Shown one piece after another: positions 1-47,482 of a DNA stretch of 64,000 nt. Numbering within the stretch: the first letter of the stretch is position 1; each line of letters opens with the position of its first letter. Origin of the DNA: Mustelus asterias (taxonomy: Eukaryota); NCBI RefSeq assembly GCF_964213995.1, contig NW_027590137.1, forward strand, positions 248,001 to 312,000, read 5' to 3'. Made by a program: the position numbers and the translations under genes. The notes beneath the pieces are model-generated. The model was not told the DNA's origin and made no database searches. It saw only the letters and a program-made list of their open reading frames with translations.

Positions 1-165
1 AGTGAGCGGGGATGAGTGAGTGGGGATGAGTGAGTGGGGATGAGTGAGTGAGAGTGTGTCAGCGAGGGAAGTTGGGTAAGTGAAGGTGAGTGAGTGAAGT
101 TCTTTGAGTGAGGATGAGAGATTGAGGGTGAGTGAGGAAGTGTGGGCGGGGGTGAGAGAGTCAGT
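1..165. repeat. GAGT/GGGGAT-type low-complexity simple repeat
   Basis: Iterated agtgagtggggatgagtg units from the window start. Confidence 0.8.
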
Positions 166-469
166 GGGCCACCTCCTCCTCTTCCTCTCCATCGATCTTT
201 TCCCGATTGTCTACATTGATCAGCTTTCTGTAACAGGGCTGTGTAAAGTCAGACAGCAGTGTAGATCACCGGGCAGCTGCTTTAATGTCGGTGCCTTTCT
301 TTAAGAAACGCGTATCAGTTAATAAATAGACAGACTGAGGGAGCTGGAAGGGAAGCTTACAGCGAAACCAGAATGGGTCGCACAGGAATCAAACAGCAGG
401 TTTACACCAGTATTGGGGAGCCAGGCGGCCTTGGTCTCAGCCAAGTCCCTTCTTACTTATTGCGTCTTT

Positions 470-735
470 GTGTCCGGTGTAACACATGGAAATCTCTACT
501 TCTGACCTCATGTTGGATGGAATGTCTTTGATGAAGCAGTAGAAGATTGTTGGTCCCAGAACAATCCCCTGCCGAACTTTTGCAGTGAAATCTGAACTTA
601 GATGTTTGACCTCCAACAACCAACACCATCTTGCTTTGTGCTAAGTATGACTCCGAACAGAGAAGAATTTCCCGCCGATTCTTATTGACTTGAGTTTTAC
701 TCGGGCTCCTCGATCCCACCCTCATTCAAATGCTA
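470..735 (-). mobile_element. Old degenerate CR1-like LINE RT fragment
   Basis: Minus translation ...VRQGIVLGPTIFYCFIKDIPSNMRSEV resembles the RT motif [16 protein letters not shown]; the same family recurs at about 15560-16500 and 34500-35700. Confidence 0.7.
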
Positions 736-752
736 GCGGGGGTTGGGGGGGT

Positions 753-1065
753 GGGCGGTGGCACGGTGATTAGCACTGCTGCCTCACAGTTCGATTCCCG
801 ACTTGGCTCACTGTCTGTGTGGAGTTTGCAAGTTCACCCCGTGTCTGCTTGGGTTTCCTACGGGTGCTCCTGTTTCCCCCCCACAGTCCAAACATGTGCG
901 GGTTCGTTGGATTGGCCGTGCTAAATTGCCCCGTAGTGTCAGAGGGACTAGTTAGGGTAAATACATGTGGTTATGGGGATAGGGCTTTGGTGGGACTGCT
1001 GTTGGTGCAGACTCAATGGGCTGATTGGCCCCTTCTGCACTGGAGGATCCTATGCTTCAATTTAT
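753..1065 (+). mobile_element. tRNA-derived V-SINE (HE1-like), CR1-type tail
   Basis: Head tggcacggtgattagcactgctgcctcacag..gttcgattcc (A/B boxes), core tgtggagtttgca..gggtttcct..cccacagtccaaa, tail gactcaatgggc..cttctgcactg. Confidence 0.85.
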
Positions 1066-1094
1066 GATGTCAAGGACAATTACTCTGACGTATG

Positions 1095-2329
1095 TGAGAT
1101 GGAAAGTGGAGAGGGTGTTTGGCTGTGTGAGAGAGATAGAGGGTGAATGTATGTGTGAGGGTGCCTGTGTGTGATAGACTGCGTTTGCACGTGTGTGAGA
1201 CAGTGGGCTGTGTGTGCAAGAGGGGAGAGTGTGTGTGAGAGAAAGGGTGTGTGAGATAACGTGTGTGTGTGAGAGAGAGAATGTGTGTTTGAAAAGTTAT
1301 TCTTTGTGTGTGAGAGTGTGTCTCTTCTTGAAAGTGTGTGTGTGGGCAGTCTGTGTGAGAGAGTACTTCGGTGTGTGATTGAGTGTGTGTTTATGTGAAA
1401 AGAAGTGTGTCTATATGAGATACAGGGTGTCTATGAAAGTGAGTGTGTGTGCTTGAGGGAGGGTGTGTGTGTGTGGGAGAGAGTGTTGTGTTCATGTGAA
1501 AGACAGTATGTGTGAGAGGGAGTGCCTATTGGAAAGCAAAATAATATGTTCATGAGTGTGTGAAAGTGTGCATGGGATGGCGTGTGAGTGAGAACGATAT
1601 GTGCAATGTGTGTGGGTGATAGAAGCGATGTGTTTGAGTGTGTGTGTGTGTGTGTGCGTGTGTGAGACAGAGAGAGAGAATTTTTGTGAGAGAGAGAGAC
1701 GTTGTGTTGGTTTATGTGTGTGAGAGTGTGTCAGACACATGAGTGTTTTGCACGTGTTTGAGAAAGTGGTCTGTGTGTGCAAGAGGAGAGAGTGTGCGTG
1801 AGAGAAAGGATATGTGAGATAGAGAATGCGTGTGTGCGAGAGAGTGTGTGTATGTTTGAAGAGTTATTTTTTATGTGTGTGAGAGTATTTTTCTGTTCTT
1901 CAAAGTATATGTGTGTGCGTGTGTGTGTGTGGAGGGGCGGGGAGAGTGTGTGTGAGTGAGAAAAACTGTGAAAATGATGCAGAATGGATGCGTGAGTGTG
2001 TGTGAGTGAAATAACGGTTGAGAGGACATGTGTCTGTGATAGGTGGAGTGTTTAAGAGAGATACATTGTGTATACATGTGTGTTCGTGTGTGAGAGACGG
2101 AGAGACTGTGTGCGTGTGAGAGAGAGAGGGTGTTTGTGAGATACAGTGTTTGAGAGCAAGATTGTGCGTGTGTGAGATAATGTGTAAGGGAGTGAGCGTG
2201 TGAAAGAGAGATAAAAACGTACCTGTGTGAGAGATTGCGTGTGCAAGTGTTCGTATGAGAGAGAGCGAGCATGCAAATGAGTGTGAGACGGAGTGAGAGC
2301 ACGGAAGAGGGAATGTGAGAGGGATAGTG

Positions 2330-2392
<63 letters not shown>

Positions 2393-2995
2393 GAGAATGT
2401 GTGCGCGAGACTGTGCTTATGTGAGAGACTGTGTCTGTGTGTAAGAGTGTGTGTTAGAGTGTGTGCGTGGGTCTATGTTTGTGAGAGAGTGTGTTTATGA
2501 GAGAGCCAGTGTGTGAGAGCAAGAATGTACAGGTGTGAGATAGTGTGTGCAAGAGCTTTAGAAATATATGCGTGTGTGTATGCGTGAGTGAGAGAGAGAG
2601 ATGCGTGCGCAAGAGGAATTGTGAGAGAGCGTGTGTGAATAAATGTGAGACAGCTTGAGCGTGTGTGACAGAGTGTGGGAGAGAGAGTGCATGTGAGAGT
2701 GTGAGACTGTGCTTATGTGAGAGTGTGTGTCTGTGTGTAAGAGAGAATGTGTGTCGGGGGTGTGCGTGTGAGTGCTTTTGTGTATGGTGGTATGAGAGAG
2801 CGAGAGTATGTGTGTATTTGTATTTGAGAGAATGTATGTAGAACGTGAGAGAGAGAATGTGTATGGGTGTGTGAGAGAGATCGGATGAGAGACAAAGTAA
2901 GTGTGAATATATATGTGTGCATGTGTGAGAGACTATGAGAATGTGTATGTGTGTATTTATGTGTGTGAGAGTGTGTGATGTGTGTAAGTCTCTCT
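1095..2995. repeat. About 1.9 kb degenerate (GT)n/(GA)n microsatellite tract
   Basis: Continuous gtgtgt/gagaga composition with a pure (GT)n run at about 2332-2389. Confidence 0.95.
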
Positions 2996-3179
2996 CTGGC
3001 TGATTCAGTCTGGAAAAACACCCTCACTCCACATACACACTCACCCACTCACACAGTAAATGGGACTGACAAGTGAGCACAATACGGAGCGCGGGCCAAG
3101 GGTTGGAAAAACATTTAAATCTTTCACAAGTCAGTTCACAATTGAATAATTTCCTCTTTCCTCAATGAGCGAAACTTGT

Positions 3180-3640
3180 AAAAACTCAAGGAATTTGACA
3201 CAATCCAGGACAAAGCCACCCACAAGATTACCCAACCCCCTCAGTCACCCTATTCACTCTCTCTATCACTAACAAGCAGTTACAGCAGTGTATAATATAC
3301 AAGATGCACTGCAGCAACTCACCAAGACTCCATAGAAAGCACTGTCCAAACCCGCTGCCTTTACAGCCTAACAGGACAAGGGCAGAAGCCACATATGAAC
3401 ACTATCACCTGCAAGCTCCCCAACAAGACACACACCATCTTGACTTGAAACAATATCTCAGTTCCTTCACAGTCGCTGGGTCAAAATCCTGGAACATCCT
3501 GCCTAACCGCACGGCGGACGCCTGCAGCATATGCACTGCAGTTATTCAAGGATACTTAATATCAATTCTTTCCCAAGGAACAATTATGTAGGGACATATT
3601 TAAAATTCTTGCTTTGCAAGCGACTCTAAATTGCCTTTAG
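3180..3640 (+). mobile_element. Degenerate 3' end of the old CR1-like LINE family
   Basis: Motifs ttgacacaatccaggacaaagc and ttccttcacagtcgctgggtcaaaatcctggaac recur at about 14330, 31315, 32540 and 35545. Confidence 0.65.
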
Positions 3641-6600
3641 AAATTAAGAATAAGATGCAAACGAATTTGACCCTGTAACTGTTCTACTAAACAGGTCAGG
3701 GACCGCTATAGTATACAGTACAATATAGTAAATCTCCCTTTGCATTTGCTCATCCAAAGTTCCCAAAGCCGGTATATCACTGGTTAAAAATCAACCAAAT
3801 CTCTCTCTACAGCCTGACGTTTCTGCTCTCTCTAACGGTCACAGTGTGCTTTAGGGATCTCATTTCTGAGACTCCGAGTCAAACATCAGATCAACCTGTC
3901 ACGTTTCTCACAGATACAAGTTTATTGAAGAAATAAATCAATTTTCACTCCCGGAAATACAGGGGAAGGAACCAAAAGGTTTATAACCAGTCAGGCAGAT
4001 TCTTGGTGCCAACACAGTGACCACGCGCACAGAAACAGAACAGACACAAACGGTGCAACAATCGAGTGCCCAGCAGATAGATCTGTTCAATCTGTCAATT
4101 TCATTCAAATTGTTGGATTCTAATTGATCAATGGTCAACTTACAACAACAGAAAATCAATAACCTACTTTAAATTAAACTGATATTCATTTCAGAACTCC
4201 TTTCGACTTTTAATTATTTCTCTGTCTCACTTCTCGAAAACTATGTAAAAATGTAATTTTGCTGAAAATGAGCAATCAAAAATAACAGGTTCAGGACAGT
4301 TCAATGTCCCTAACAGAGATGCAGTGACACAGTCAGAATTAAACAAATCAGGAAACATTTACATTGAAAATCATTATCTGATTCGAGTTAATTTCTTAAT
4401 TAAATTAATGAACAAAATAATCAAGGCAAAATACTTTATCGAGCTGAGCATAGCTGAGTAAAAAAATGTTTTGTTTCTGAATTCATTTTCGATACAATTA
4501 AATATTCTCTAAAACTAATTGTATTTTGCACGCCTGTACAATATTCAAGTTCTTTTGTTTTAAATTAATCAGCAGCAATATTATATTTTAAGTTATTGTT
4601 AATTGCCAGTTAGTTCTCTTATCAGCTGATTTGAACTCTGTAATAAAATGAGTTTTCAATCATTCAAAACGTGCTTCTACCTCCAGCATTGTTAAATAAT
4701 TAGGTTACAATTAAACCTTATACAATGTTAAACAATAATTTTAAATTACTGAATGGAAACATTCAGAATCTGTCATTCATTTACTTAAATCCAATCACAT
4801 TGTAATATTTTACTTTTCCACTTTTACTACAAATGTCGTATTATAACCTAGAAACGTGTTAAAAATGCATACTTCTGAATTTGTATAGGCTGTAACGGCC
4901 TGGCAGTTTGAAATCAATAATAATGCATTCTAGATGTAAAAAGTTAGCCCATCCATATAACTTAATTACTGAACACATTGTTTAATTAAAGAAAATCTGA
5001 ATTAAACAGTGCAAACACAAAGAGGACAATTGATTCAAATCCTCTAAAGCACGATGCAGAATATAAGTCCAGACTTTTTCTTCATTATAATATTTAACAA
5101 GTATTAAACATAAGGTTCAGATATAATCAATTCTTCTATTCTGTCATTTATTCTTCCCATAATTCTATCCTGAGTTCAGCAGTAATGGGAGACATGATGT
5201 TATTATTAAGTGCAGAGCTAATATTATTTTTATAGTATCAGAATATTTTTACATAAATTAATTTTTTTGAATTTCAAGCATTAACTTGTCCATCTCTAGC
5301 CAGTTTGTGTTGACACTTTACTACAATTCAAACACAATCATATGAACAATTGCTTGAGTGTCAGCGAATTCCACCTGTCAGAAAACTCTGTTCACTCTGT
5401 CAAATTTATACAAACTCTTTGATTCTAATTGATCAAAGGTCAAATTACAACAACAAAAAAATCAATACATATTTTAAATTAACCTGATGTTCATTTCAAA
5501 ACTCCCTTCGCCTTTTAACTATCTCTCCCTGTCTGTCTCAAATCCCGAAAACTGGGCAAAAATGTATTTTTTCTGAAAATGAGCACATCAAATATAAAAG
5601 ATTCAGGGTAGTGTAATGTCCCTGAAGAGATACGGTGACACAGTAAGAATTGTAATTCATGATTTATTTTACTCTGTAAGCATCAGTTAACATGAATAAA
5701 AGTCCTAACATATATTTATTTTATTTTTCCGAAACCTGTTTACTTTACCCCTCCAAGAATTTTCAAACGCAGTTTTATTTTCATTTAGCCAGAAAACGTG
5801 TAACCGTTCAGTATCACTGAGTTGAACCAATACAGAAACAATTGAGAAACACCAAACCATTTCACAAATTTTGAGATGAGATTAGTAATTAATTATCTCG
5901 GTATCCAATTACAAATTACTTGGAAGGAATAATCTGGTTGCGACTGCACAGGAAAAAAATGTAGTATTCGGATACAAACATAGCCAAAAAGCAACGTCTT
6001 ATTCTGCAAAACTCGTATTCCAGTGAATGCGAACTTAATCTGGGATATAACGACTAATGCCAAGTATCGTGTTCAGCTGAGAGCTGCTGTGGAAACAGCA
6101 TGTTATCATTGAAATAATTTCTGGAATTGTCACAAAATATTTGCAGTCTGGAAATTTTTCTGGTCATGTTAATTGTGTGAAAAGCACAACAGAACTATTA
6201 AAGGGGATGACTGCTAAATTATATCAATACAAAGTAATCTTTGGTGAATATGGAGTTATATTACCGATTAATAATTGTTTGATTTATATTAATTTTACTA
6301 TTAAACTTGTTAATGAGAAGTTTGTGATTGCAGCAACGACGTAGTGTCCGAATGAGCGTTGTACGTCATGATGTATTTTAATTTGTAAGCGTTAGTTAAA
6401 ATTTATAAAAATGCTGTAATATCTTTATTTTAGTTTTTTTTCCAAAACCTGCTCGTTTTCTCCCTACAAGGATTTTCAAACTCAAAGATTGTTTGCATTC
6501 AACCAGAAAACGTCTAACCGCTCAGTGGCACCGAGTTTGAACAATGCAGAAATAATGCAGCAAAGCCAAACTATTTCACAAATTTTAAACATTCATAGTG

Positions 6601-7845
6601 ACCAAACCACAGAATCTCCTCAACGGAAACACCCCAAAACACATCAATGAGGGAATGAATCCGTTTCATGGAGAAACAGCTCAATTATCCATTGAACAGA
6701 ATCAAATGTAACATTGCAAGAAAATCTCAATATCGAATCTAGCAAACCAGCTCTGAACCAATTGTTAAAGGAAACATAAATCTGGAATAATAACAATAGC
6801 ATTGCGAGGAGATGGAATATGCCCAACAAATTAGTATTGAAACGCTATCACATTTTATTCAGATTGGAATATATTTCAAACATATTTAAACATTTGGATG
6901 GTAAAAGCTCCAGCCATCAAATGCCACCGAGATTAAACATTGCAGGTACCTCAGATTGTGAATGCCGTGACAAACTATGTTCTGAGCGAGCGGCGTAAAC
7001 CGTGGTTTAGTTTAACCTGCTTAAAATTTAAAAAATACAAACACACTAAAGCCTGTCTGATTTCTGCCTGCAGTCATGCGTCAAGCAATTGTAAACCCGC
7101 AGACTGTTCATATTCAATCACAAAGCGTGTAACAGCTGTGTCACCGAGTTTAAACAATGCAGAAACACCAAACTATTTCACAAATTTTACTTACTTAAAG
7201 TCACCCAGATACATAATCTCCTCACCAGAAAAAACGCACCACTGAGAGTCTGAACCCCGCTTCCTGCAGAAGCAGCTCAATTCTACAAACACTTGCAACA
7301 GAATCAAATGTAACATTGACAGAAATTTTTAATATAAATTCCAGCCAATCCACCCATCACCAAAGTAATTAATGTTTATAATAAGCAGAAATATTGCATA
7401 GCAGCACCAGCACTGCTAGTGAGTGGAACATGTTCACTGGATTAATCTAGAAATTATAGAACCTTTTTAAAATATTGGGTTAGATTTCAAACACTTGTGC
7501 AGTTGATGGTACAACCCGCAGCCACTAGATGTCACCGAGATTAAACATGACCGACACGCTGAATTGTTTAACAGACGTCAGGTTTTTAAAGTAACCCAGC
7601 CACACAGTAGCCTCAAAAGATAAACACAAAATCACAATAATTAGGGATTGAATTGCTCAGCTGCCTCTATTGTCAAGAAACAGCGGAATTCTAGAACCCC
7701 TTTGCATCAGAATCACAGGAAACATTGTAAAAATTCTCAATCCACCAAACCCACATTTAAGTAAACGAATTGATTATTAGCATAGACAAAAATATGAAAC
7801 AAAGACACATGTAAACCAATTATTCAATAAGTGCATCGTTCTTAC

Positions 7846-7893
7846 CTGCAGTCACCGTCACCATGGTACCTTGTCCCCAGTAGTCGAAGTAGT
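7846..7893 (-). CDS. IGHJ: Immunoglobulin heavy-chain J segment (YFDYWGQGTMVTVTA)
   Basis: Minus strand ACTACTTCGACTACTGGGGACAAGGTACCATGGTGACGGTGACTGCAG|gtaag: WGxG motif and canonical splice donor. Confidence 0.97.
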
Positions 7894-7932
7894 CACAGTG
7901 TCACATTCCCTGGGCTGTGTCATACAATAACC
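7894..7932 (+). other. JH recombination signal sequence, 23-bp spacer
   Basis: CACAGTG (7894-7900) + 23 bp + ACAATAACC (7924-7932). Confidence 0.95.
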
Positions 7933-8259
7933 GTCCCTGCACAAAATAGACACAAAACCACCATTAATTTAAATATTCACAAACCAGAGGAAAAGCAAAG
8001 TCAATTAATGTTCATTAAATTATAATTGTATTTCTGGATACCATTCTCCATTTATAAATGACCCGAATGTTTTATATTTCACAGCGGAACACATGAACAT
8101 GTTATTGATAAACACCAACCGATAATTGAGTAATTATCACGTATTTTCCATGTTCATTCTCATCATGTGGTCAGTGCTGGACATAAATAATACTGTCCTG
8201 TGATTAAAGTTGGAATTTAAAAGTGACACTGATCCAGCCTCAATCAATTAGTGCTGAGG

Positions 8260-8328
8260 TGTTTTTGTATTGACAGTAACTGCTGTGCCATTCCAGTTAT
8301 CACAGTGAGACACAGCATGACAAATACT
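8260..8328 (-). other. IGHD: IgH D2 segment (coding 8288-8300, ATAACTGGAATGG) flanked by 12/12 RSSs
   Basis: Plus strand: TGTTTTTGT (8260-8268)-12-TGCTGTG (8281-8287) [D] CACAGTG (8301-8307)-12-ACAAATACT (8320-8328). Confidence 0.95.
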
Positions 8329-8638
8329 GCGGCAGATTATTAACTGTAAAATGCAGATAGGTCATTTCACTGCTATTTCAAAAGTCTGTTTCCATGTCGT
8401 TTAAGAATGAGTCAGTGAGATATTTCAATTTTTACTGGTCATGATATTGATAAAGGGGAATTAGAAACTTTTACACTCTCCGTGCACATTCAGCATGTAA
8501 ATCAATAACAATAAAGTTGAAGTATTTTATATCTTTTAAAAAACAATGCTGCTTCTACCTATTATTTTGTCTATTCCTCATTTTGTTTAGCATTCGGCAG
8601 TGGCACTGATCACATATTTAAGCAAAGTCTTTCTCTGA

Positions 8639-8718
8639 GGTTTTTGTATGAGGATGTCGCTGTGCTCAGCACTGTGACCCACTGCTGTATCACTGTGACA
8701 CACACCCACACAAAAACT
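8639..8718 (-). other. IGHD: IgH D1 segment (coding 8677-8690, ATACAGCAGTGGGT) flanked by a V-facing 12 RSS and a D2-facing 22 RSS
   Basis: Plus strand: GGTTTTTGT (8639-8647)-22-CACTGTG (8670-8676) [D] CACTGTG (8691-8697)-12-ACAAAAACT (8710-8718). Confidence 0.95.
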
Positions 8719-9065
8719 GCACTCATTCTATTCAGTACTGCCGCTCAATATTCACTTCAAATGGACCATTAGTTCTGCTCTCATTTAAAATGTATGCAAC
8801 TGTTTATATAACACAATCTATCAGAAATATTAAAATGAGTAATATGTCCAGTGATGTACTTGCTGAAACTACAACAAATATAAAGTCAGTGAAAAGCTCA
8901 CCCCGTTACAGTGGTGAGTTTGTTATATTTTACTGTTAAATGCTTTCTTTGTTACTTCTTTTGAACACGATTATGGTTTGGTTCTGACCACTGTCGTTAA
9001 TATTACATTTAAAACAGATATTTACCTTCAGGTTATGATGGAAGTTGCTGAATTCCCTCTCGAGC

Positions 9066-9104
9066 TGTTCTTGTTCGGGTGCAGACCTGGTTCCTCTCGC
9101 TGTG
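9066..9104 (-). other. VH recombination signal sequence, 23-bp spacer
   Basis: Minus strand: CACAGCG (9104-9098) + 23 bp + ACAAGAACA (9074-9066), directly after TGT GCA AGA GAC. Confidence 0.93.
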
Positions 9105-9412
9105 GTCTCTTGCACAGTAATAGATGGCGGTGTCTTCAATCTTCAGGCTCATCATGTCCAAAACGAAGATGCTCTTTGAAATGTCTTTGGACGGAGTAAA
9201 TCGATTCTGAATCCCTGGGGCGTAGTAGATGGTGTTAGATGAATCGTAGTAGAGAGTCAGCCACTCCAGCCCCTGTCCGGGAACCTGCCGGATCCAGCCC
9301 ATCCAGTAGCTGCCAAGATTGAAGCCGCTGGTTTTACAGGTCAGTTTGAGGGAGCCTCCTGGACGCCCGGTCTCTGCCTCTGGCTGAGTCAACACAACCT
9401 CCGACTGAACAC
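9105..9412 (-). CDS. IGHV: Immunoglobulin heavy-chain V exon, shark IgM-type, open and apparently functional
   Basis: Acceptor ttttacag|GT; translation (G)[51 protein letters not shown]...[11 protein letters not shown] with both canonical Cys, the FR2 Trp and YYC; no stops. Confidence 0.97.
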
Positions 9413-9543
9413 CTGTAAAAATATATCAAAAACCCCGAGGATTAATCCGGGTGAAATGATTGCTGATTCTGCAACAATCCAGAGATAGACTAACACTGAG
9501 ACAGTAGCAGTCAGACTTGCACAATAAAAAAAAATCTACTCAC

Positions 9544-9589
9544 CGGATAAGAAAGTCAGCAAGAAACTGAGAGAAATCGCCGACCTCAT
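9544..9589 (-). CDS. IGHV: VH leader exon (MRSAISLSFLLTFLS-G)
   Basis: ATG at 9589, 46 nt, hydrophobic signal peptide, phase-1 donor G|gtgagt; a 131-bp intron splices in frame to the V exon. Confidence 0.95.
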
Positions 9590-9674
9590 CCTTCTGGTAA
9601 ATTGGGGGAAATGGTTGTGTCAGAAACTCAGTGAACAAACCAGCTCCCGGACTGTTGGATTCCGGTCCCAGTGA

Positions 9675-9735
9675 GCGGCATTTAAATACCCGGCAGAAGG
9701 GGGCGGCTTTCCAGGCGCCGCCTGTTGATTCCCTG
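9675..9735 (-). promoter_or_regulatory. VH promoter: TATA-like box plus GC-rich upstream motifs
   Basis: TATTTAAA on minus (9688-9681) about 90 bp upstream of the ATG; GGGCGG and GGCTTTCC at about 9701-9712; no ATGCAAAT nearby. Confidence 0.65.
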
Positions 9736-11489
9736 CTGGAGGCGGCGACAGGGTCCAGGTCCCACCTTCCACACCCCCAACAGAATGGACTTCCAGATTT
9801 ACAATGGGTTAATATTAAAATGGACATTTTATCTGTATCGGGATATTTGTTTGGCTGAAAATGTTCAATGTATTGTCTCCATTATTTCTGATGGTGATAT
9901 TGCAATTCATCATTTCTTTATTTGAAATAACTGATTCCATTGTAAATATGGTGATTTTATTACCACGCCCCCAAGAAGAACACAAATCTAAAAATGATTA
10001 AATAACATTTTTGGAAAATAAAGAGACCGTCAGTCTGTGTTGCAACAATTCCGGGTCTCTGTCACATTACAATAATAAAGCATCATTTATCAGAAGAATT
10101 GTTATCGATTTCTGTAACTAAATGCGGAGTATGAACAAAGTGATTGCATTTACAGTGCGGATGGCTATCACTGTACAATTTGGGTTTGGTGATGAGAAGA
10201 AACTCTCACACAATACAATGTTTCTCCTTATATTTGTCAAACTGCCCAATCTCGAAGACAGCCCTTTGAAAATAATAAGAATCCCGCCTTCCTGATAATT
10301 AAGTAGTGAGTTGACAGAGAAACATAAATTTAACATCGACTTTTGACAGAGAAGTTAATGAATCGGAACGGACACGGAGATCATTAAAGTTCTCCTTCAG
10401 CATCCAAATCGTGGCAGCTCGCTCTATTGGCCACCGGCTGTCTAATATTCATTGGTATTGGGAACACAGTGTATCAGGCCTTTGCTGCACATTGCACAAC
10501 ATCACAAGAATAAATGTTTTACCTTCCATTGAATCAGGTTATGAACTGATCATTTCTCCACTCATTAGCAGCTATGAGAGGAACTCTTCAATAATGGAAA
10601 TCAGATTATACTGTACAATAGAACACGGTGTAAATCAGGTACAAGAGACGCTGCTGTTTAAATAGGGTGCAAAACTTTCAGTATATTCCAGGAATCCCTG
10701 TTGTTCGTGTCAGTTTTATGATGTTCTTTTAATATTATTTCGATGCATTTTTGCCATTACAGTGATCTCAATTGACTGGGGAAATGGGACCATCAACATC
10801 TCTCTCTCGCATTTCATGAAGTGGTTAATAAACAGCCTTTAATTATTGGAATGACATTTACTTGGAAGTTATACAAATGAAAAATCATCCGGTCACTTTA
10901 CTGTTTTGCGATGCTATTTACTCACATAATGAACAGGACATTGAATGAAAATATTTGATTAGAATGATTCCGAATTAACATGTGTCATTCTTGTGGGAAT
11001 GAAACATTTATTCTTTAAATGGCTGAATCCCAATTTGTCCATTCAGGTTCACGCTAATCTGCCCCACACAGTATTTGGCAGCAATCCAGCCCGCTGTCAA
11101 ATGCTCAAAGTTATTGACAGGAAGCATCTGGGGGTGTTTGTGCAGTAGATCTGTTTTCTCAGTACTGACCGCTTGGCTGCAAGCCAACTTCAAACCCTTC
11201 ACATTGTCAATGAGCCCTATTTGTAAAGAAATCTACCCAGCAACAGTACTGGAGGCAATTTAATATTTTAAGTTGTAAGTCTATATGGATTTGACCCATC
11301 TCTCAAGAAAGACAATTTATGCAGCTTCTCTGACACCCTGTTAGCAACAATGATGATTTTTCCAACACATCAGGATATTGTCATGGATGGATCGAAAGAA
11401 TTACAGGCAGACTGAGAGATGACTCAGGGAGACGATACATGTTGTAATACATGAACATATATGCTTGTGTATTCTTTCCCTATCTCGTT

Positions 11490-17889: not shown

Positions 17890-20105
17890 AGATGGTCCTC
17901 GGGTTGAAGTTCTGAACTGGAAAAAGGCCAAATTTGATGAAATGAGAAGGGATCTGGGAAGTGTGGATTGGCACAGGCTGTTCTCTGGTAAGGATGTAAA
18001 TGGAAAGTGGGAGGCCTTCAAAGGAGAAATTTTGAGAGTGCAGAGTTTGTATGTTCCTGTCAGGATTAAAGGCAAAGTAAATAGGAACAAGGAACCTTGG
18101 TTCTCGAGGGAGATTGTAACACTGATTAAGAGGAAGAGAGAGTTGTATGAAATGTACAGGCAGCAAGGAACACATCAGATGCACGAGGAGTATAAAAAGT
18201 GCAAGAAGCTCCTTAAGAGGGAAATCAGGAGGGCTAAAAGAAGACATGAGGTTGCTTTGGCAGACAGAGTGAAGGAAAATCCAAAGAGCTTCTATAGGTA
18301 TGTTAGGAGCAAAAGGATAGTGAGAGATAAAATTGGTCCCCTTGAAGACCAGAGTGGTAGACTGTGTATGGAACCAAAAGAGATGGGGGAGATACTAATT
18401 GGTTTTTTTGCATCCGTATTTACTGAGGAAACGGGCATGGAGTCTACGGAAATAGGGCAAACTGGTAGGGAGGCCATGGAACCGTTACAGATTAAAGGGG
18501 AGGAGGTGCTTGCTGTCTTGAGGCAAATCAGAGTGGATAAAACCCCAGGACCGGACAGGGTATTCCCACGGACCTTGAGGGAAGTGTTGAACTTGCAGGG
18601 GCCCTGGCAGACATATTTAAAATGTCAGTATTCACGGGGGAGGTGCCGGATGATTGGAGGGTGGCTCATGTTGTTTCGTTGTTTAAAAAAGGTTCCAAAA
18701 GAAATCCAGGAAATTATCAGCCAGTAAGTTTGACGTCGGTGGTGGGCAAGTTATTGGAAGGTGTGATACGGGATAGGATCTACAAATATTTGGATAGACA
18801 GGGACTTATTAGGTAGAGTCAACATGGCTTTGTGCGTGGTAGGTCATGTTTGACCAATCTATTAGAGTCTTTCGAGGAGGTTACCAGGAAAGTGGATGAA
18901 GGGAAGGCGGTGGAAGTTGTCTACCTGGATTTCAGCAAGGCCTTTGACAAGGTCCCTCATGGGAGGTTAGTTAGGAAGGTTCAGTCGCTAGGTATACATG
19001 GGGAGGTAGTAAATTGGATTAGACACTGGCTCAATGGAAGAAGCCAGAGAGTGGTTGTGGAGGATTGCTTCTCTGAGTGGAGGCCTGTGACTAGTGGTGT
19101 GCCGCAGGGATCGGTGTTGGGTCCATTGTTGTTTGTCATCTATATCAATGATCTGGATGATAATGTGGTCAATTGGATCAGCAAGTTTGCTGATGATACA
19201 AAGATTGGAGGTGTAGTGGACAGTGAGGAAGGTTTTCAAAGCTTGCAGAGGGATTTGGACCAACTAGAAAAATGGGCTGAAAAATGGCAAATGGAATTTA
19301 ACGCAGACAAGTGTGAGATATTGCACTTTGGAAGGACAAATCAAAGTAGAACGTACAGGGTAAATGGTAGGACTCTGAAGAGTGCAGTTGAACAGAGGGA
19401 TCTGGGAATACAGGTACAGAATTCCCTAAAAGTGACGTCACAGGTGGATAGGGTCGTAAAGAGTGCCTTTGGTACATTGGCCTTTATAAATCGGAGTATC
19501 GAGTATAAAAGTTGGAGTGTTATGGTAAGGTTACATAAGGCATTGGTGAGGCCGAATTTGGAGTATTGTGTACAGTTTTGGTCACCTAGTTACAGGAAGG
19601 ATGTAAATAAGATTGAAAGAGTGCAGAGAAGGTTCACAAGGATGTTGCCGGGACTTGAGAAGCTGAGTTACAGAGAGAGCTTGAATAGGTTGGGACTTTA
19701 TTCCCTGGAGCGTAGAAGATTGAGGGGAGATTTGATCGAGGTGTATAAGATTTTGATGGGTATAGATCGAGTGAATGCAAGCAGGCTTTTTCCGCTGAGG
19801 CTAGGGGAGAAAAAAAACCAGAGGGCATGGGTTAAGGGTGAAAGGAGGAAAGTTTAAAGGGTATTAGGGGGGGCTTCTTCACGCAGAGAGTGGTGGGAGT
19901 GTGGAATGAGCTGCCGGATAAAGTGGTAAATGCGGGGACACTTTTAACATTTAAGAAAAACTTGGACGGGTTCATGGATGAGAGGGGTGTGGAGGGATAT
20001 GGTCCAAGTGCAGGTCAGTGGGACTAGGCATAAAATGGTTCGGCACAGACAAGAAGGGCCAAGAGGCCTGTTTCTGAGCTGTAATTTTCTATGGTTCTAT
20101 GGTTC
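17890..20105 (+). mobile_element. CR1 LINE ORF2 (RT), 5'-truncated, frameshifted
   Basis: ORFs 17942-18727 and 18832-19857 with [25 protein letters not shown]; tail (TTCTATGG)n; near-identical to 54070-56282. Confidence 0.96.
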
Positions 20106-26861: not shown

Positions 26862-28870
26862 TAAGACCATAAGTCCATAAGACATAAGAAATAGGAGCAG
26901 AATGAGGCCACTCGGTCCATCGAGTCTGCTCCCGCCATTCAATGATGGCTGATATTTTTCTCATCTATATTCTCTTGCCTTTTCCCCATAACCACTGATC
27001 CTCTTATTAATCACGAACCCATCTATCTCTGTCTTAAAAACACCCAATGACCTGGCCTCCAACCTTATACGGCAAGAGATCCACAGATCCACCACACTCT
27101 GGCCGAAGAAATTCCTCCTCAGCTCTGTTTTAAACGATCGTCCCTTTAGTCTGAGGTTGTGCCCTCTGGTTCTAGTTGTTCCTACGAGTGGAAACATCCT
27201 CCCCACGCCCACTCTATCCAGGCCTTGCAGTATCCTGAAAGATTCAATAAGATCTCCCCTCATCTTTCAAAACTCCAACGAGTACAGATCCAGAGGACTC
27301 AACCGTTCCTCATACAGCAAGCCCTTCATTCCAGGCATCATTCTTGTGAAACTCCACTGGACCCTTTCCATGGCCAGCACATCCTTCCGAAGATATGGGG
27401 CCCAAAACTGCTCACAATACTCCAATTGGGTCTGACCAGAGCCTTGTACAGCCTCAGAAGTATATCCCTGCTCTTGCATTCTAGCCCTCTCGACATGAAT
27501 GCTAACATTGCATTTGCCTTCCTGAACCTGCACTTTAACCTTAAGAGAATCTTGAACAATGACTCCCACGTCCCTTCGTATTTTTGATTTCCTCAGCATT
27601 TTCCCATTTAGAAAATAGTCTATGCCTCCATTCCTCCTTCCAAGAGCATAACCTCACATTTTAATTGTATTCGAGCTGCCACATCTTTGCCGACTCTGCT
27701 AACCTGTCCAAGCCCTTCTGCAGCCCCCCTGCTTCCTCAATACTACCTGTCCCTCTACATATCTTTGTATCATCTGCAACCTTAGCAACAGTGCCTTCAG
27801 TTCCTTCCTCCAAATCGTTAATGCATACTGTGAAAAGTTGTGGTCCCAGCACTGACCCCTGAGGCACACCACTAGTCACCGGCTGCCATCCTGAGAAAGA
27901 CCCCTTTATTCCCACTCTCTGCCTTCTGCTAATCAACCAATCCTCTATCCATGACAGGATCTTACCCTTAACACCATGTGCACTTAACTTATTTAACAGT
28001 CTCTTTTTCGGCACCATGTCAAAGGCCTTCTGGAAATCTAAATAAATCATGTCCACTGGCTCTCATTTATCTAACTTCCTTGTTACCTCCTCAAATAACT
28101 CTAACAGATTTGTCAGATATTACCTCCCCTTCAGAAAACTGTGCTGACTCAGTCCTTCTTTATCATGCACTTCCATGGACTCTGCGATCTCATCTTTAAT
28201 AATGGAATTTAAAGTCTTGCCAATGACCGAAGCCAGGCTAACCGGCCTATAAATTCTCGTCTGCTGCCTGCCTCCCATCTTAAACAGTGGTGTTGCATTC
28301 GCTACTTTCCAGTCCTCTGGTACAGTCCCTGCCTCCAGTGATTTCTGAAAGACCACCACCAATGCTTCCACAATTTCCTCAGTTATCTCTTTTAGAAACC
28401 TGTGGTGTAGTCCTTCCGGTCCAGGTGAATTATCCACCTTCAGACCTTTCATTTTCCCCAGAACCTTCTCCTTAGTGATGGCCACTGCAGTTACCTGTGC
28501 CCCCGGACTCTCCTGGAGCTCTGGAATTCCACTGGTGTCTTCCACCGTGAAGACTGATGCAAAGTAACTATTCAGTTCCTCTGCCATTGCTTTGTTTCCT
28601 ATTATTACTTCTCCAGTCTAATTTTCCAGTGGTCCAATGTCAATGTTTGCGTCTTTCTTACCTTTTTTTAGATTGAAAAGAACTCTCCCTGTCTTATTTG
28701 ATATTACTAGCTCGCTTACACTCATATTGCATCTTCTCCCCCCTTATTGCTTTTTTAGTTGTCCTCTGCTCGCTTATAAATACGTCCCAATCCTCTGGCT
28801 TCCCACTAATCTTTGCCGCTTTGTATGCTTTAACTTTTGCTTTAATGCTGTGCTTGACCTTTATGCTGTG
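26862..28870 (-). mobile_element. CR1 LINE ORF2 fragment (frameshifted)
   Basis: ORFs 28120-28587, 27661-28056 ([22 protein letters not shown]) and 26961-27263; (TCTTATGG)n tail. Confidence 0.93.
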
Positions 28871-40074: not shown

Positions 40075-43000
40075 GGTACATAGAAATTAGGAGCCGGAGG
40101 AGGCCAGTCGAGCCTGATCCACCAGTCTTCATGATTATGGGTTATTTCCTATCTCAAGGCCACATTATTGGATTCTGCCCACACCCCCTGATACCATTAA
40201 GATCTAATCACAGATCGATTTATTTCTTGAATCTATTCAGTGGCATGACATCCAAAGCCTTCAGTGCTACAGGACTCCGTATGTTCACTAGCCTCTGAAG
40301 TGAATAAATATTTCCCCATTTCTGTCCTAAATTGGCTACCCTATGTCTTGAGACTGCATCCCTGGTTTGAGACTACCTAACCAGCGAAAACGTCCTTCCT
40401 TCATCTTGCCTGCCCAGCCCTGTTAGAATTCGTTTAATTATTCATAACTTCATTTATTATTAATGCACAAGTAGACATACACTGCAATGAAGTTACTTTG
40501 AAAAGGCCCTATGGCCACACTCCAGCGCCTGTTCAGGTACGCTGAGGGAAAATTTAGCATGGCCAATGCACCGAATCAGCACGTCTTTCGGACTGTGGGA
40601 GGAAAACGGAGCACCCGAAGGAAACCCACGCAGATAATGTGCAGTCTCTGCACAGACAGTGACCCAAGGTGGGAATCGAACCCAGGTCCCTGGCATTGTA
40701 AAGCAGCCATGCTAGCCACTGTGCCACTGCATCGCCCTCATTTTTTATGCTTTGAATGTTGCAATCACAATTTTATGTATTTCAATCAGATCTCCTCTCA
40801 TCCTTCTAAACTCGAGTGAATACATGAGGTGGAGATGCTCGCGTTGCACTTGGGTGTGCACAGTAAGAAGTCTCGCAACGCCAGGTTAAAGTCCAACAGG
40901 TTCATTTGGAATCACGAGCTTTCCAAGCGCTGCTCGTTCATCACGTCAGTCAAGTGAATGCAGGTCCGGTCGATGCAAGTTCGCCTTATAGGACAGTCCC
41001 ACCAATGCGTGTATCAGCTGCACTCGCCAGAGACCCTTTCTTAGGTCGGGAGATCAAATCTACACGCATTACTCCAGATGTGGTCTTCTGAAGACCCGGC
41101 ATTACTTCAGTAAGACTTCACTAATTCCGAACTCAAATCTTCTTGCAACGAAGGCCTTCCAAATTGCTTGCTGTACATACCTCTCCGATTTCATTGGTTG
41201 GTGTACAAGGATACCCAGATCCATTTGTACATCACACTTCCAAATATATATTGTTTTGTTCTTTGCACACGCATATAACTGTACATTTAGCCACGTTGTA
41301 TTGCATCTGCCACATGTTCACCCATTCACACAACTTGTCCAGATCACATTGAACACCCTTGCATCCTCCTCACAGCTCACAAGTCACTGCATCCTCCTCA
41401 TTGCTCACAGTTATATATCGCCAGCCGCTTAGGACATGTTACATTTGATTTCCTTATCCAGATCCCACGGTGGCACGGGGTCGGGGACCGGGTTCGCTTC
41501 CCGGCTTGGGTCATTTTCTGTACGGAGTCTGCACGTTCTCCCCGTGCTTACATGGACTTCTTCTGGGTGCCCCGGTTTCCTCCAACAATCCGAAGGACGT
41601 GCAGCTCAGGGACATTGGCCATGCTGAACTTTCCCTCAGTGTACCCGAACAGGCGCTGGAGTGTGGTGACTCGAGGTTTTTCACAGTAACTTCATTGCAG
41701 TGTTACCGTAAGCCGACATGTGACTAATAAATAAATAATATAAGTTGGGATCATGAAGTACCCCACCAGTCGCTGACTGCCACTCGGAAAAAGACCCATG
41801 TATTTCCATTCTCTGTTTCTTGTCTGTCAACGAATTCTACACAAATGTCAATACATTATTCCCTATCCCACGTGCTTTAATTTGACCTACTAATATTTTA
41901 CGAGGAACCGTCTCAAATGTCTTCTGAAAGTGCAAATGCACCACGTACATGCACGCTGACATAGGTAGGAAGACGGAAGGTGTAATGAAAAGAGAATATA
42001 GGGAGTTAGGTAGACAGTTGGGAAGGAGGAACGCAAAGGTAGTAATCTCAGGATTGTTGCCTGTGCCACGGGAAAGTGAGAGCAGGAATGGAGTGAGGTG
42101 GAGGATGAATGCGTGGCTGAGGGACTGGAGCGGAGGGCAGGGATTCAGTTTCCTGGATTATTGGGACCTCTTTAGGGGAAGGTGTGACCTGTACAAAAAA
42201 GACGGGTGGCACTTGAATCCCAGGGGGACAAATATCCTGGCAGGAAGGTTGGCTAAGGCTACTGGGGAGGCTTTAAACTAGAAAGGTTGGGGGGAGGGAA
42301 TCGTGATGAGGTGACTGAGAGCGAGGAGGCTAGCTCGCAAATAGAGAAGGATTGTACACAGTGTAAGAGGGAGAATAGACGGGTGATGGGGAAGGGGAGA
42401 GCTCAAACCAAAGGTTTGAGATATGTCTATTTTAATGCCAGGAGTGTAGTGAATAAAGTGGATGAGCTTAGAGTGTGGATCGATGCTTGGAAGTGTGATG
42501 TGGTGGCCATTACGGAGACTTGGGGACAGGGACAGGACTGGATACTTCAGGTGCCGGGTTTCAGACGTTTCAGAAAGGACAGACAGGGAGGCAAAAGAGG
42601 GGGGTGGGGAGTGGCACTGCTGATCAGGAATAGTGTCAGAGCTGCAGAGAATGTGGAAGCCATGGAGGGATTGTCTACGGAGTCTCTGTGGGTGGAAGTT
42701 CGGAGCGGGAAGGGGTCGATAACTTTGCTGGGTGTTTTGTACAGGCCGCCCAATAGTAACAGGGATGTTGAGGAGCAGATAGGAAACAGATCCTGGAGAG
42801 ATGTAGGAATAACAGGGTTGTCGTGATGGGAGACTTTAATTTCCCAAACATCGATTGGAATATCCATAGAGTAAGGGGTTTGGATGGGGAGGGGGTTGTT
42901 AGGTGTGTTCAGGAGGGTTGCCTGACACAGCATGTGGATAAGCCTACAAGAGGAGAGGCTGTACTCGACCTGGTACTGGCTAATGAGCCAGTACCAGATG

Positions 43001-46000
43001 TCGGATCTCTCAGTGGGAGAGCATCTTGGGGATAGTGATCATTACTCTATCTCCTTTACGCAAGCATTGGAAAGAGATAGGATCAGGCAAGCTAGGAAAG
43101 TGTTTATCTGGAGTAAGGGGAAATATGAAGCCATCAGGCAGGAGATTAGATGTGTAAATTGGAAGGAGGCATTCTCGAGGAAAAGTACTGAAGTAAGGTG
43201 GCAGATTTTCAAGGAATGTTTGCCTCGAGTTCTGCATGACAACGTTCCGATGAGAGAGGGAGGTGTTGGTAGGTTACGGGAACCATGGTGCACGAAAGGT
43301 GCGCTGAACCTAGTGAGAAAGAAAAGGAAAGCGTACAAAAGCTTCAGAGCGCTAGGCGATGATAGGGATCTAGATGAGTAGACGGCTTGTCGGAACGAAA
43401 GAAATTAGGAGAGCCAGAAGGGGTCACGAGAAGGCCTTGGCAGGTAAGATTAAGGAGAACCCGAAGGCGTTCTATAAATATGTGAAGAGTAAAAGGATGA
43501 GATGTGATGGAATAGGAATTATAAAAGGTGTAGGTGAGATAGTCTGTACAGAACCGGAAGAAATAGCAGAGGTGCTTAATGAATATTTTACCTCGGTATT
43601 CACGGTGGAAAAAGACCTGGGTGGTTGTACTACAGGACTGAGGTGGGCTGAAAAGATTGAGTATGTGGACATTAAGAAAGAGGATGTGTTGGAAATTTTG
43701 AATAGCATCAAGATAGATAAGTCGCCGGGACCGGATGGGATGTACCCCAGGTTACTGTGGGAGGTGAGGGAAGAGATTACAGAGCCTCTGGTGATGATCT
43801 TTGCGTCGTCGATGGAGACGGGAGAGGTTCTGGAGGATTGGAGGATTGCGGATGTGTTTCCTATATTCAAGGAAGGGAATAGGGATCGCCCAGGAAATTA
43901 CCGACCGGTGAGTCTAACCTCAGTGGTTGGTAAGTTGATGGAGAAGATCCTGGGGGACAGGATTTATGAACATTTAGAGGAGTTTCGTATGCTCAAACGT
44001 AGTCAGCACGGCCTTGTCAAAAGCAAATCGTGCCTTACGAGACTGGTGGAGTTCTTTGAAAATGTGACTAAACACATTGATGAAGGAAAAGCGGTAGATG
44101 TGGTTTATATGGACTTCAGCAAGGCGTTCGATAAGGTACCCCATGCAAGACTTCTCAAGAAAGTGAGAGGGCATGGGATGCAAGGGGCTGTTGCCTTGTG
44201 GATTCAGAAGTGGCTTGCCTGCAGAAGGCAGAGAGTGGTTGTAGACGGGTAATTTTCTGAACGGAGGTCGGTCACCAGTGGAGTGCCCCAGGGATCTGTT
44301 CTGGGACCCTTGCTGTCTGTCATTTTCATAAATGACCTGGATGAGGAAGTGGAGGGAAGGGTTGGTAAGTTTGCCGACGACACGAAGGTTGGTGGTGTTG
44401 TGGATAGGTTGGACGCATGTCAGAAGCTGTAGTGTGACATTGATAGGATGCAAGACTGGGGAGAGAAGTGGCAGATGGACTTCAAACAGGATAAATGTGT
44501 AGTGGTCCATTTTGGCATGTCGAATGGGATGAAGGAGTATAATATCAAGTGTACGACTCTTAGCAGTGTAGAGGATCAGAAGGACCTTGGGGCCCAGGTC
44601 CATAGGACTCTTAAATCGGCCTCGCAGGTAGAGGGGGTGGTTAAGAAGGTGTATGGTGTGCTGACCTTCATCAATCGAGGGATTGAGTTTAGAAGTCAGG
44701 AGATAATAATGCAGCTTTATAAGACCCTCGTCAGACCCCACTTGGAGTACTGTGCTCAGTTCTAGTCGCCTCATTACAGGAGGGATGTGGAAATGATTGA
44801 AAAGGTGCAGAGAAGATTTACAAGGCTGTTGCCTGGATTGGTTGGCATGCCTTATGAGGATAGGCTGAGGGAGCTCGGTCTTTTCTCCTTGGAGAGATGA
44901 AGGCTGAGAGGTGACCTGAAAGAGGTGTACAAGATGTTGAGAGGTATAGATCGGGTGGATTCTCGGAGGCTTTTTTCCAGGGCTGAAATGGCTGCTACGA
45001 GAGGACACGTGTTTAAGGTGCTGGGGAGTAGGTACAGAGGAGATGTCAGGGGTAGGTTTTTCACTCAGAGGGTGGTGGGCGAATGGAATCGGCTGCCATC
45101 AGTGGTGGTGGAGGCAAACTCGATAGGGTCTTTTAAGAGACTTCTGGATGAGTACATGGGACTTAACAGGATTGAGGGTTATAGATAAGCCTATATATAA
45201 GCCTAGGTAGGTAGCGGCATGACCGGCGCAACTTGTGGGCCGAAGGGCCTGTTTGTACTGTATTTATTTCTATGTTTCTATGTTCTATGTACCCTGGTTC
45301 CCTCCCCCCTCCCTCCATCCCCCCCCCCCCCCGCCCCCCCCCCCTCACTATTCTATGACTTACAGCCTCAGAAAACGCAAGTAGGTTTGTTAAGAATGAC
45401 ATATCTTCCTTAAGCCCATGCTGGCTTCATCAAATTCCGTTAATGCTTTCCAAATATTTTGCTATCATGTCTTTGATAACAGTCTCTAACATCTTCGCTT
45501 ATGCTAAAGTCAGGCTGTAATTCAACATTTTTACTCTCCCTTCCTTTGTACATATTGGGATTTCATTTGTCACCCTCCAATCTATAGGAACTGATCCAGA
45601 GTGTATAGAATTTTAGAGGATGACACCAATGCACCCAATATTTTCAGGGCCATTTTCATTCATACTCTGGGATGTAGATTCTCAGGCCTTAGTGATTTAT
45701 CAGCATTTCACCCCATTAATTTCCCCAGCATAATTTTGCTACTAACACTGGTGTTCTTCAATGCCAACTAGCTCTTGGTTCCCTAACATTTCTGGGAGGA
45801 TATTTGTGTCCCCTTTTGTGAAGATGGAGTCAAACTTTGTGTTCTATTCATCCAACATTTCTTTGTTCCCCATTATAATTTCCCTGGATTGTGACTGGAA
45901 GCTACCTAATTTGTCTTAAATAATCTTTGTCTCTTCAGATATTCAGAGAAGCTTGTACAATTAGTTTCTCTGCTTCCTGCCATTATACTTTCATTCTCTC

Positions 46001-46090: not shown

Positions 46091-46255
46091 TCTTACAAGT
46101 AAGAAGTAAAATTTCCTCTCCTAAAATACATCAGAGAAGAAGATGAACTTTGCCGAAATATGATTGTTATTAATTAGACAACGATGTTTGATTCAGCTTA
46201 ATCAATTAATTGAATTGAAATTCCCCAGTTGCTGGGGTGGAATTTGAACCCTTGC

Positions 46256-47482
46256 GGTTGATGGAGGAGAACCGGTGGATGCGGTGTTTTTGGATTTCCA
46301 AAAGGCGTTTGATAAGGTGCCCCATAAAAGGCTGCTGAAGAAGATTAGGGCACACGGAGTTGGGGGTAGTGTGTTAAAGTGGATCGGGGACTGGCTATCC
46401 GACAGGAAGCAAAGAGTCGGAATAAATGGGTGTTTTTCCGGTTGGAGGAAGGTAACTAGTGGCGAGCCGCAGGGATCGGTACTTGGGCCGCAACTGTTTA
46501 CCATTTATATAGATGATCTGGAGGAGGGGACGGAGTGTAGGGTAACGAAGTTTGCAGACGACACAAAGATAAGTGGAAAAGTGAATCGTGTGGAGGACGG
46601 AGAAGATCTGCAGAGAGATTTGGACAGGCTGAGTGAGTGGGCGAGGATATGGCAAATGGAGTATAACGTTGATAAATGCGAGGTTATACACTTTGGAGGA
46701 AATAATAACAAATGGGATTACTATCTCAATGGAAACAAATTAAAACATGCTACCGTGCAAAGGGACGTGGGGGTCCTTGTGCATGAGACGCAAAAGCCCA
46801 GTCTGCAGGTACAACAGGTGATCAAGAAGGCAAATGGGATGTTGGCCTATATTGCGAGGGGGATAGAATATAAAAGCAGGGATGTCTTGATGCACCTGTA
46901 CAGGGCATTGGTGAGGCCGCAGCTGGAATACTGTGTGCAGTATTGGTCCCCTTATATGAGGAAGGATATATTGGCATTGGAGGGAGTGCAGAGAAGGTTC
47001 ACCAGGTTGATACCGGAGATGAGGGGTTTGGATTATGAGGAGAGGCTGAGGAGATTGGGTTTGTACCCGTTGGAGTTTAGAAGGATGAGGGGGGATCTTA
47101 TGGAGACTTATAAGATAATGCGGGGGCTGGACAGGGTGGAGGCGGAGAGATTCTTTCCACTTAGCAAGGAAGTTAAAACTAGAGGACACAGCCTCAAAAT
47201 AAAGGGGGGGGGGGTCGGTTTAAGACAGAGTTGAGGAGGAACTTCTTCTCCCAGAGGGTGGTGAATCTCTGGAATTCTCTGCCCACTGAGGTGGTGGAGG
47301 CTACCTCGCTGAATATGTTTAAAGCGCGGATGGATGGATTCCTGATCGGTAAGGGAATTAAGGGTTATGGGGATCAGGCGGGTAAGTGGTACTGATCCAC
47401 GTCAGATCAGCCATGATCTTATTGAATGGCGGGGCAGGCTCGAGGGGCTAGATGGCCTACTCCTGCTCCTATTTCTTATGTT
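46256..47482 (+). mobile_element. Young CR1 LINE RT fragment (319-aa uninterrupted ORF) inserted in a SINE
   Basis: ORF 46275-47234 [23 protein letters not shown]; CTTGC direct repeat at 46251-46255 and 47483-47487; SINE sequence on both sides. Confidence 0.95.

What the first reader, a model, noticed from the sequence alone, without database searches (positions are those of the whole stretch)
7846..9589. Complete unrearranged shark IgM minicluster with an RSS grammar that wires V-D1-D2-J
Seen: L-V(23) | (12)D1(22) | (12)D2(12) | (23)J within 1.75 kb, segments about 375-415 bp apart, all splice sites intact. Known: cluster-type IgH organisation of cartilaginous fish and the RAG 12/23 rule. 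Consequences: D1 cannot join J by deletion without D2, V can skip D1 and join D2, and D2 can invert. D1 is open in all three frames (IQQW, YSSG, TAVG); D2 has a TAA in one frame; neither encodes Cys. This is a known system, but the ORF track shows only the V part, so the D, J and leader are easily missed.
Basis: partly seen in the sequence, partly recalled or inferred. Interest (0 to 1): 0.7.

Follow-up and report, generated by a model that had tools for sequence, protein, structure and literature searches.

The report
Ordinary intact shark IgM gene cluster
This is a complete, unrearranged shark antibody (IgM) heavy-chain gene, one of dozens of similar copies in this genome, whose four pieces are likely stitched together by the usual recombinase in B cells; the layout is textbook for sharks.

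Summary
On the minus strand lie leader 9589-9544, V 9412-9105 (23-RSS), D1 8690-8677 (12/22), D2 8300-8288 (12/12) and J 7893-7846 (23), 414, 376 and 394 bp apart. Six RSS fall within 1.3 kb; 200 shuffles gave at most 2. The missing half lies 11 kb past J, beyond the window start: four open C1-set exons, a mu-type secretory tail and a TM exon. So it is IgM, not IgW or IgNAR. All 30 paralogues fetched keep the same spacers. Contigs of a related shark show V-J joins carrying D1 and D2 cores. Pre-joined paralogues show V-D1, D1-D2 and D2-J joins. V-to-D2 skipping and D2 inversion are allowed by the 12/23 rule but were not shown. The V-D1-D2-J-Cmu minilocus is published (PMC2435157), so the finding is ordinary. 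One side lead lies on another contig (C138): an IgM V-D1 fused without N bases to a TCR-delta D-J-C unit, in an assembly with 19 delta-type C exons. This scan had already noted both on other DNA.

The parts
9698..9745 (-). 48-nt block upstream of a TATA-like site (9688-9681); likely core promoter element (inferred)
   Evidence: identical in at least 12 of 13 divergent paralogues; function not tested
9544..9589 (-). Leader exon (MRSAISLSFLLTFLS, phase 1), GT donor at 9543
   Evidence: spliced leader-V joint 9544/9411 in contigs X1 and X2 of a related shark
9105..9412 (-). VH exon, open, both Cys and the Trp present
   Evidence: Pfam V-set E 1e-14; antibody VH domains are the PDB hits
9066..9104 (-). 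V 3' RSS, 23-bp spacer
   Evidence: spacer 23 in 30 of 30 loci
8691..8718 (+). D1 5' RSS, 12-bp spacer (heptamer CACTGTG)
8677..8690 (-). D1, 14 nt, open in three forward frames
8639..8676 (-). D1 3' RSS, consensus heptamer and nonamer, 22-bp spacer (inferred to act as a 23-class signal)
   Evidence: spacer 22 in 30 of 30 loci; D1-D2 joined paralogues L037 and L038
8301..8328 (+). D2 5' RSS, 12-bp spacer
8288..8300 (-). D2, 13 nt, TAA in one frame
8260..8287 (-). D2 3' RSS, 12-bp spacer (heptamer CACAGCA)
7894..7932 (+). J 5' RSS, 23-bp spacer
7846..7893 (-). JH, 48 nt, WGQG motif, GT donor at 7845
   Evidence: J spliced to a CH1-like start in X1 and X2 loose ends
1..7845 (-). First 7.8 kb of the 11,087-bp J-Cmu intron. 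Beyond the window on G000:C105 lie CH1 244758-244459, CH2 243486-243175, CH3 242251-241943, CH4 plus secretory tail 241449-241058 and TM 237907-237780
   Evidence: four Pfam C1-set hits above cut-off

Best explanation
This is an intact, unrearranged IgM heavy-chain minilocus (leader, V, D1, D2, J, four C-mu exons, secretory tail, TM exon) that RAG likely assembles in lymphocytes by three short deletions, V to D1 (23 with 12), D1 to D2 (22 with 12) and D2 to J (12 with 23). Shown here: the anatomy, the open exons, the splice sites, and the invariance of the spacers across paralogues. Shown in relatives or paralogues only: the three joins, and spliced leader-V and J-CH1 products. Inferred: that the 22-bp spacer works as a 23-class signal, so D1 bridges V and D2 and cannot delete to J; that the joins happen in any order, as in nurse shark; and that this particular copy is expressed. 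Three trimmed, N-filled junctions give CDR3 diversity although the cluster has one V and one J.
For: Six correctly oriented RSS in 1.3 kb against at most 2 in 200 shuffles. Spacers 23|12-22|12-12|23 in 30 of 30 loci, 28 of them distinct sequences. The two 5' D spacers were fixed at 12 in that pattern, and the unconstrained scan found 12 for both in all 30. Against 13 divergent paralogues, RSS-containing bins are 86-96% identical while D1-D2 intervening bins are 66-73%, which points to selection on the signals. L+V is open in all 30 loci. Four C1-set exons are open with AG/GT phase-1 boundaries (CH4 runs on into the tail), plus a tail ending CQ-stop and a TM exon. The best full-length PDB hits of CH4 plus tail are mu chains. 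Pre-joined paralogues: V-D1 (L035, L036), D1-D2 (L037, L038), D2-J (L040). In run X1, 12 of 24 junction inserts were printed; read by eye, 8 carry a forward D2 core, 5 a clear D1-type core, and 3 both in D1-D2 order. Nurse shark miniloci have the same layout, about 400 bp spacing, and all single-join intermediates (PMC2435157).
Against: No read was tied to this copy: X1 and X2 are 90-99% alike, come from another organism label, are one study, and are only guessed to be RNA. TM2 was not found within 6 kb by my pattern; read-through of the TM donor would end KVR-stop. Three of the six RSS carry 2-3 mismatches. The L037 single D could also come from homologous deletion between similar D segments, as L029 has a D1-like D2. 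I could not open a paper that states the 22-bp spacer for IgM D1; that point is recalled from horn shark work, and I read it only for IgNAR (PMC8692893).
Confidence: 0.92

Rival explanations
1. Structurally intact but silent or rarely used copy (a pseudogene by regulation or by weak RSS).
For: No run holds this copy as RNA-confirmed sequence. The D1 5' heptamer is CACTGTG where most paralogues have CACAGTG, and the D2 3' nonamer is ACAAAAACA.
Against: All exons open, splice sites intact, promoter block conserved. L035, a paralogue 97-100% identical, has undergone a V-D1 join.
Confidence: 0.05
2. The V-D-D-J belongs to another isotype (IgW or IgNAR) or has no C gene.
Against: Four C1-set exons, mu-type tail and TM on the same strand 11 kb downstream; two D segments; top full-length PDB hits are mu. 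No other V or J lies between J and CH1.
Confidence: 0.01
3. The copy is a redundant haplotig of a near-identical cluster, so copy counts are inflated.
For: L002 is 98-100% identical in every region tested; several loci are pairwise identical over V-D-D-J (30 loci, 28 distinct); many hits are on 1-Mb contigs.
Against: L002 differs in D2 length and one V codon. One 20-Mb contig (C71) carries at least 7 different clusters. This would change the count, not the mechanism.
Confidence: 0.02

Closest known systems
Nurse shark IgM miniloci (Malecek et al. 2008, PMC2435157; read: introduction and passages)
   Same: One VH, two D, one JH within 2 kb, about 400 bp apart, one C-mu gene; rearrangement inside the cluster; VD, DD and DJ intermediates all occur.
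   Different: J-C intron is 11.1 kb here against 6.3-6.8 kb there. This assembly has at least 40 matching places against about 15 loci, and has pre-joined paralogues, which the review PMC5192425 (passages) says nurse shark lacks for canonical IgM.
Horn shark (Heterodontus) IgH clusters with 23 | 12-22 | 12-12 | 23 signals (Kokubu and Litman 1988; recalled, paper not held)
   Same: By recall, the same spacer pattern, and a mix of split and germline-joined clusters. The mix is also stated in PMC2193156 (passages).
   Different: No difference found; the spacer values could not be checked against the paper.
Bamboo shark IgNAR clusters (PMC8692893; passages)
   Same: Cluster layout, with 12-, 22- and 23-bp spacer RSS all drawn in the figure legend.
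   Different: IgNAR has its own V and C types (three D and five C domains, recalled); this locus has two D and four C-mu exons.
Ig-TCR-delta transrearrangement in the elasmobranch antigen receptor complex (Flajnik et al. 2025, PMC12227049; read: abstract, section 6, passages)
   Same: IgM clusters lie near TCR-delta segments, and VH can join TCR-delta D segments; relevant to the side lead on C138 and C71.
   Different: That paper describes TCR alpha/delta as a translocon and the joins as somatic. Here 19 delta-type C exons were found, and one IgM V-D1/D-delta join is in the assembly itself. The window's own contig C105 had no delta C hit.

Membership tests
Elasmobranch IgM heavy-chain minilocus | One V, two D, one J within about 2 kb, about 400 bp apart | tested here: met
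   no second V or J motif on C105:208001-312000 and no further RSS cluster in the window
Elasmobranch IgM heavy-chain minilocus | RSS compatible with V-D1-D2-J joining under the 12/23 rule | tested here: met
   23|12-22|12-12|23; shuffle control
Elasmobranch IgM heavy-chain minilocus | Own C-mu gene: four C1-set exons, secretory tail with penultimate Cys, TM exon | tested here: met
   TM2 not located
Elasmobranch IgM heavy-chain minilocus | Multi-copy cluster family | tested here: met
   47 matches from 40 scored of 221 candidates, 32 covering nearly the whole query
Elasmobranch IgM heavy-chain minilocus | This copy rearranges somatically and is expressed | tested here: inconclusive
   Joins and splices seen only in contigs of a related organism
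IgW cluster | IgW-type C exons (two or six and more domains; recalled) | tested here: not met
   four C exons with mu-type CH4 and tail
IgNAR cluster | Three D segments, five C exons, short V (recalled) | tested here: not met
   two D, four C, full-length VH
Germline-joined IgH cluster | V, D or J fused in the genome with RSS lost | tested here: not met
   all six RSS present in the window; joins occur only in paralogues L035-L040

The most novel reading that the evidence does not exclude
The 22-spacer signal on D1 is also the hook by which IgM variable genes are grafted onto T-cell receptor delta. On contig C138 an intact IgM leader-V-D1 of this same family is joined, without N bases, to a 5'-trimmed TCR-delta D, followed by delta J segments, an open C exon and a TM exon. 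That would be an inherited, still rearrangeable antibody/TCR hybrid gene made by RAG in the germline, most simply by a deletion within one of many IgM-plus-TCR-delta repeat units such as the one on C71.
Probability: 0.55. Interest if true: 0.6.

Novelty: new member of a known kind. Interest (0 to 1): 0.2.

Why it matters
The cluster itself matters only as annotation: it gives exact germline V, D, J and C coordinates for repertoire work in this shark, which ORF-based annotation misses. The side lead matters more. A fixed IgM-V/TCR-delta join would be a direct example of the step proposed for the origin of antibody-type V genes in TCR-delta loci, and many separate delta D-J-C units would depart from the single-locus picture. 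Both lie off this window and need read-level proof.

Tried and rejected
No RNA holder of the window stretch was listed; this says nothing on expression. D2 inversion: none of 12 printed junctions needed it (12 more were not shown); one C-rich stretch resembles an inverted D2 core but sits beside a forward D2 core, so it was read as N bases. V-D2 skipping: cannot be told from D1 trimming in 3 of 12 junctions; none of 6 deviant paralogues shows it. PMC2435157 has 0 occurrences of 'inversion' or 'skipp'. A CTCF-like motif at 7522-7535 (recalled consensus, 1 mismatch) is conserved in paralogues, but 13 matches at 2 mismatches against 7.4 expected is weak (3 of 100 shuffles reach it); one paper search gave nothing on it. 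Extra RSS-like hits (8670, 8664, 8080, 7714, 2166) have off-size spacers or poor nonamers and were rejected. Upstream window ORFs are retroelement fragments only: 7 of 32 ORFs hit Pfam, all reverse transcriptase or endonuclease. TM2 search found nothing. Eight paper look-ups were not held, among them my attempts at Kokubu 1988, Lee 2008, Criscitiello 2010, Deiss 2019 and Ott 2021. Searches listed no paper that gave the IgM 22-bp spacer in its title or abstract start. Searches listed nothing by title or abstract start on an inherited IgM/TCR-delta join, but the unheld papers may cover it. No supplements were read.

Full report
Observation. The signals are V-23, 12-D1-22, 12-D2-12 and 23-J, and the gaps are 414, 376 and 394 bp. 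With at most 3 mismatches to the recalled RSS consensus, the window has 7 sites, 6 of them here. 200 dinucleotide shuffles gave 0.97 per window and at most 2 in any 1.3 kb. The V is an antibody VH-type domain.

The constant region. The window is G000:C105:248001-312000. I fetched 40 kb below it. On the same strand, 11,087 bp after J, come CH1 (244758-244459), CH2 (243486-243175), CH3 (242251-241943), CH4 with a secretory tail ending VNSCQ-stop (241449-241058), and a TM exon (237907-237780). All are open with canonical boundaries. All four pass the Pfam C1-set cut-off. After one engineered IgG hybrid, the top PDB hits of CH4 plus tail are mu chains aligned over the whole tail. The protein search gave 5 hits, 62-97% identical, one named IgH of Callorhinchus. 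So this is IgM. A second TM exon was not found by my pattern. The rest of the window holds no other V or J; 7 of 32 longer ORFs hit Pfam, all retroelement domains.

The family. A DNA search of the genome returned 47 matches from 40 scored of 221 candidates, 32 of them covering nearly the whole query. All 30 loci fetched have an open leader plus V and the spacers 23|12-22|12-12|23; 28 are distinct sequences. In that script the two 5' D spacers were fixed at 12; the free scan found 12 for both in all 30. Against 13 divergent paralogues, the bins holding RSS are 86-96% identical and the D1-D2 interval 66-73%. None of the 30 D1 or D2 segments encodes Cys, and D1 is open in three frames in all 30. 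Counts may be inflated by redundant contigs.

Evidence that the grammar is used. I fetched 6 of the places that matched only in part. L035 and L036 have V joined to D1 with the V-D1 interval gone and no clear N bases; the L036 join recurs on C872 and C122. L037 and L038 have a single D between D1's 5' signal and D2's 3' signal. L040 has D2 joined to J. L039 is the side lead below. None is a D1-J or V-D2 join or an inversion. Lack of N bases is what PMC2193156 (passages) reports for germline joins, so these are likely inherited, but that is inferred. Contigs of runs X1 and X2 (one study, RNA only guessed, mostly 90-99% alike) cover leader, V and J at very high depth and the intervals at almost none. 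They show joints from J to V that skip about 1,215 bp, a leader-V splice, and J running into a CH1-like start. Of 24 junction inserts in X1, 12 were printed. Read by eye, 8 have a forward D2 core, 5 a clear D1-type core, 3 both in order, 3 a D2 core with no visible D1, and none needs an inverted D2. These come from homologous clusters of a relative, not from this copy.

Mechanism. RAG likely pairs each 12-signal with a 22/23-signal and deletes about 400 bp three times; trimming and N addition at three junctions build CDR3; the VDDJ exon splices to C-mu, with secreted or membrane ends. In nurse shark all single-join intermediates occur, with no strict order and almost always within one cluster (PMC2435157; introduction and passages). 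The other two, V-D2 skipping and D2 inversion, are allowed but unproven.

Comparison and novelty. The layout matches the published nurse shark minilocus. The 12/22 signal on D1 I recall from horn shark work that was not held; I read 22-bp spacers only for bamboo shark IgNAR (PMC8692893). It is a new member of a known kind, with low interest.

Side lead, off the window. L039 (C138, minus strand) has an open IgM leader-V, a 23-RSS and a 12-RSS. Then come the full 17-nt D1 of its nearest unjoined relatives (6-17 mismatches over 2,014 bp upstream in four loci) and, directly after, the last 10 nt of an 18-nt D seen unjoined in L052-L054, with one shared T and no N bases. A 23-RSS, four TCR-type J motifs (three with a 12-RSS passing the strict scan), an open C1-like exon and a TCR-type TM exon follow. 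That C exon scored 20.3 bits against Pfam's cut-off of 21. Database relatives of it are auto-named TCR alpha-like in sharks. I call it delta because of the 12/23 D; that label is inference. It has 19 matches in the genome at 83-100% identity. The 1.85 kb after the joint differs at 59-79 places from all 9 other copies tested, so no unjoined twin was found, which argues against a somatic event; only 40 of 92 candidates were scored. Against it: L052-L056 are nearly identical to each other (0-5 differences), so the assembly may hold redundant or lymphocyte-derived contigs, and no reads were laid on the joint. On C71 a closely related IgM cluster lies 55 kb upstream of a same-strand delta D-J-C unit, so one D1(22) to D(12) deletion would give the C138 form. 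PMC12227049 (abstract, section 6, passages) reports IgH near TCR alpha/delta and somatic transrearrangement, and in what I read no inherited join or multiple delta units. The key nurse shark papers were not held. After I found this, one search showed that other reports of this scan noted the same join and the 19 C exons; they are unchecked AI notes on the same assembly and add no support.

Verdict. Observation confirmed, interpretation supported, interest 0.2.

Noticed in passing
L039 / G000:C138:217700-218500 (minus), with J and C down to about 193700: IgM leader-V-D1 fused without N bases to a trimmed TCR-delta-type D, followed by J segments, C and TM exons; a 12/23-compliant Ig/TCR hybrid in the assembly.
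   Followed up: partly
G000, 19 places listed (three on C71): Many TCR-delta-type C exons at 83-100% identity, some with D-J units behind IgM clusters; none on the window's contig C105.
   Followed up: partly
G000:C71:7061000-7142000 (L067-L075): Same-strand series: IgM cluster, a V-D-J cassette resembling NAR-TCR (label recalled) with a supporting V, then D, five J, and delta-type C and TM exons.
   Followed up: partly
L035, L036, L081, L082 (V-D1); L037, L038 (D1-D2); L040 (D2-J): Partly pre-joined IgM paralogues of all three adjacent kinds; the L036 join recurs on three contigs.
   Followed up: partly
L055 (C850), L056 (C401): TCR V joined to the delta D; the DNA after the D differs at only 1-4 of 1,850 bases from unjoined copies, so these are recent germline joins or somatic contigs. 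The L056 V is broken.
   Followed up: partly
window 9650-11100: The 5' flank is 90-99% identical across all clusters, even those only 70% identical between D1 and D2 and 84-87% in V: a constrained or homogenised promoter region.
   Followed up: partly
window 7517-7539: A 23-nt block 310 bp after J, conserved in at least 12 of 13 divergent paralogues, holds a CTCF-like motif pointing back at the V-D-D-J; statistically weak on its own.
   Followed up: partly
window about 5600-7600: The J-C intron seems to hold three diverged repeats of roughly 600-700 bp (seen by eye), then CA-rich simple repeats below 3000.
   Followed up: no
window 18817-19854, 27664-28062, 42257-44249, 46248-47231, 53785-55393: Retroelement fragments (reverse transcriptase, endonuclease) fill the 54 kb upstream of the cluster; no other gene found.
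   Followed up: yes
L029: D2 has been replaced by a D1-like sequence while keeping D2's 12/12 signals, which suggests conversion between D segments.
   Followed up: no
L021, L038: J has one extra base before the WGQG codons compared with other paralogues.
   Followed up: no
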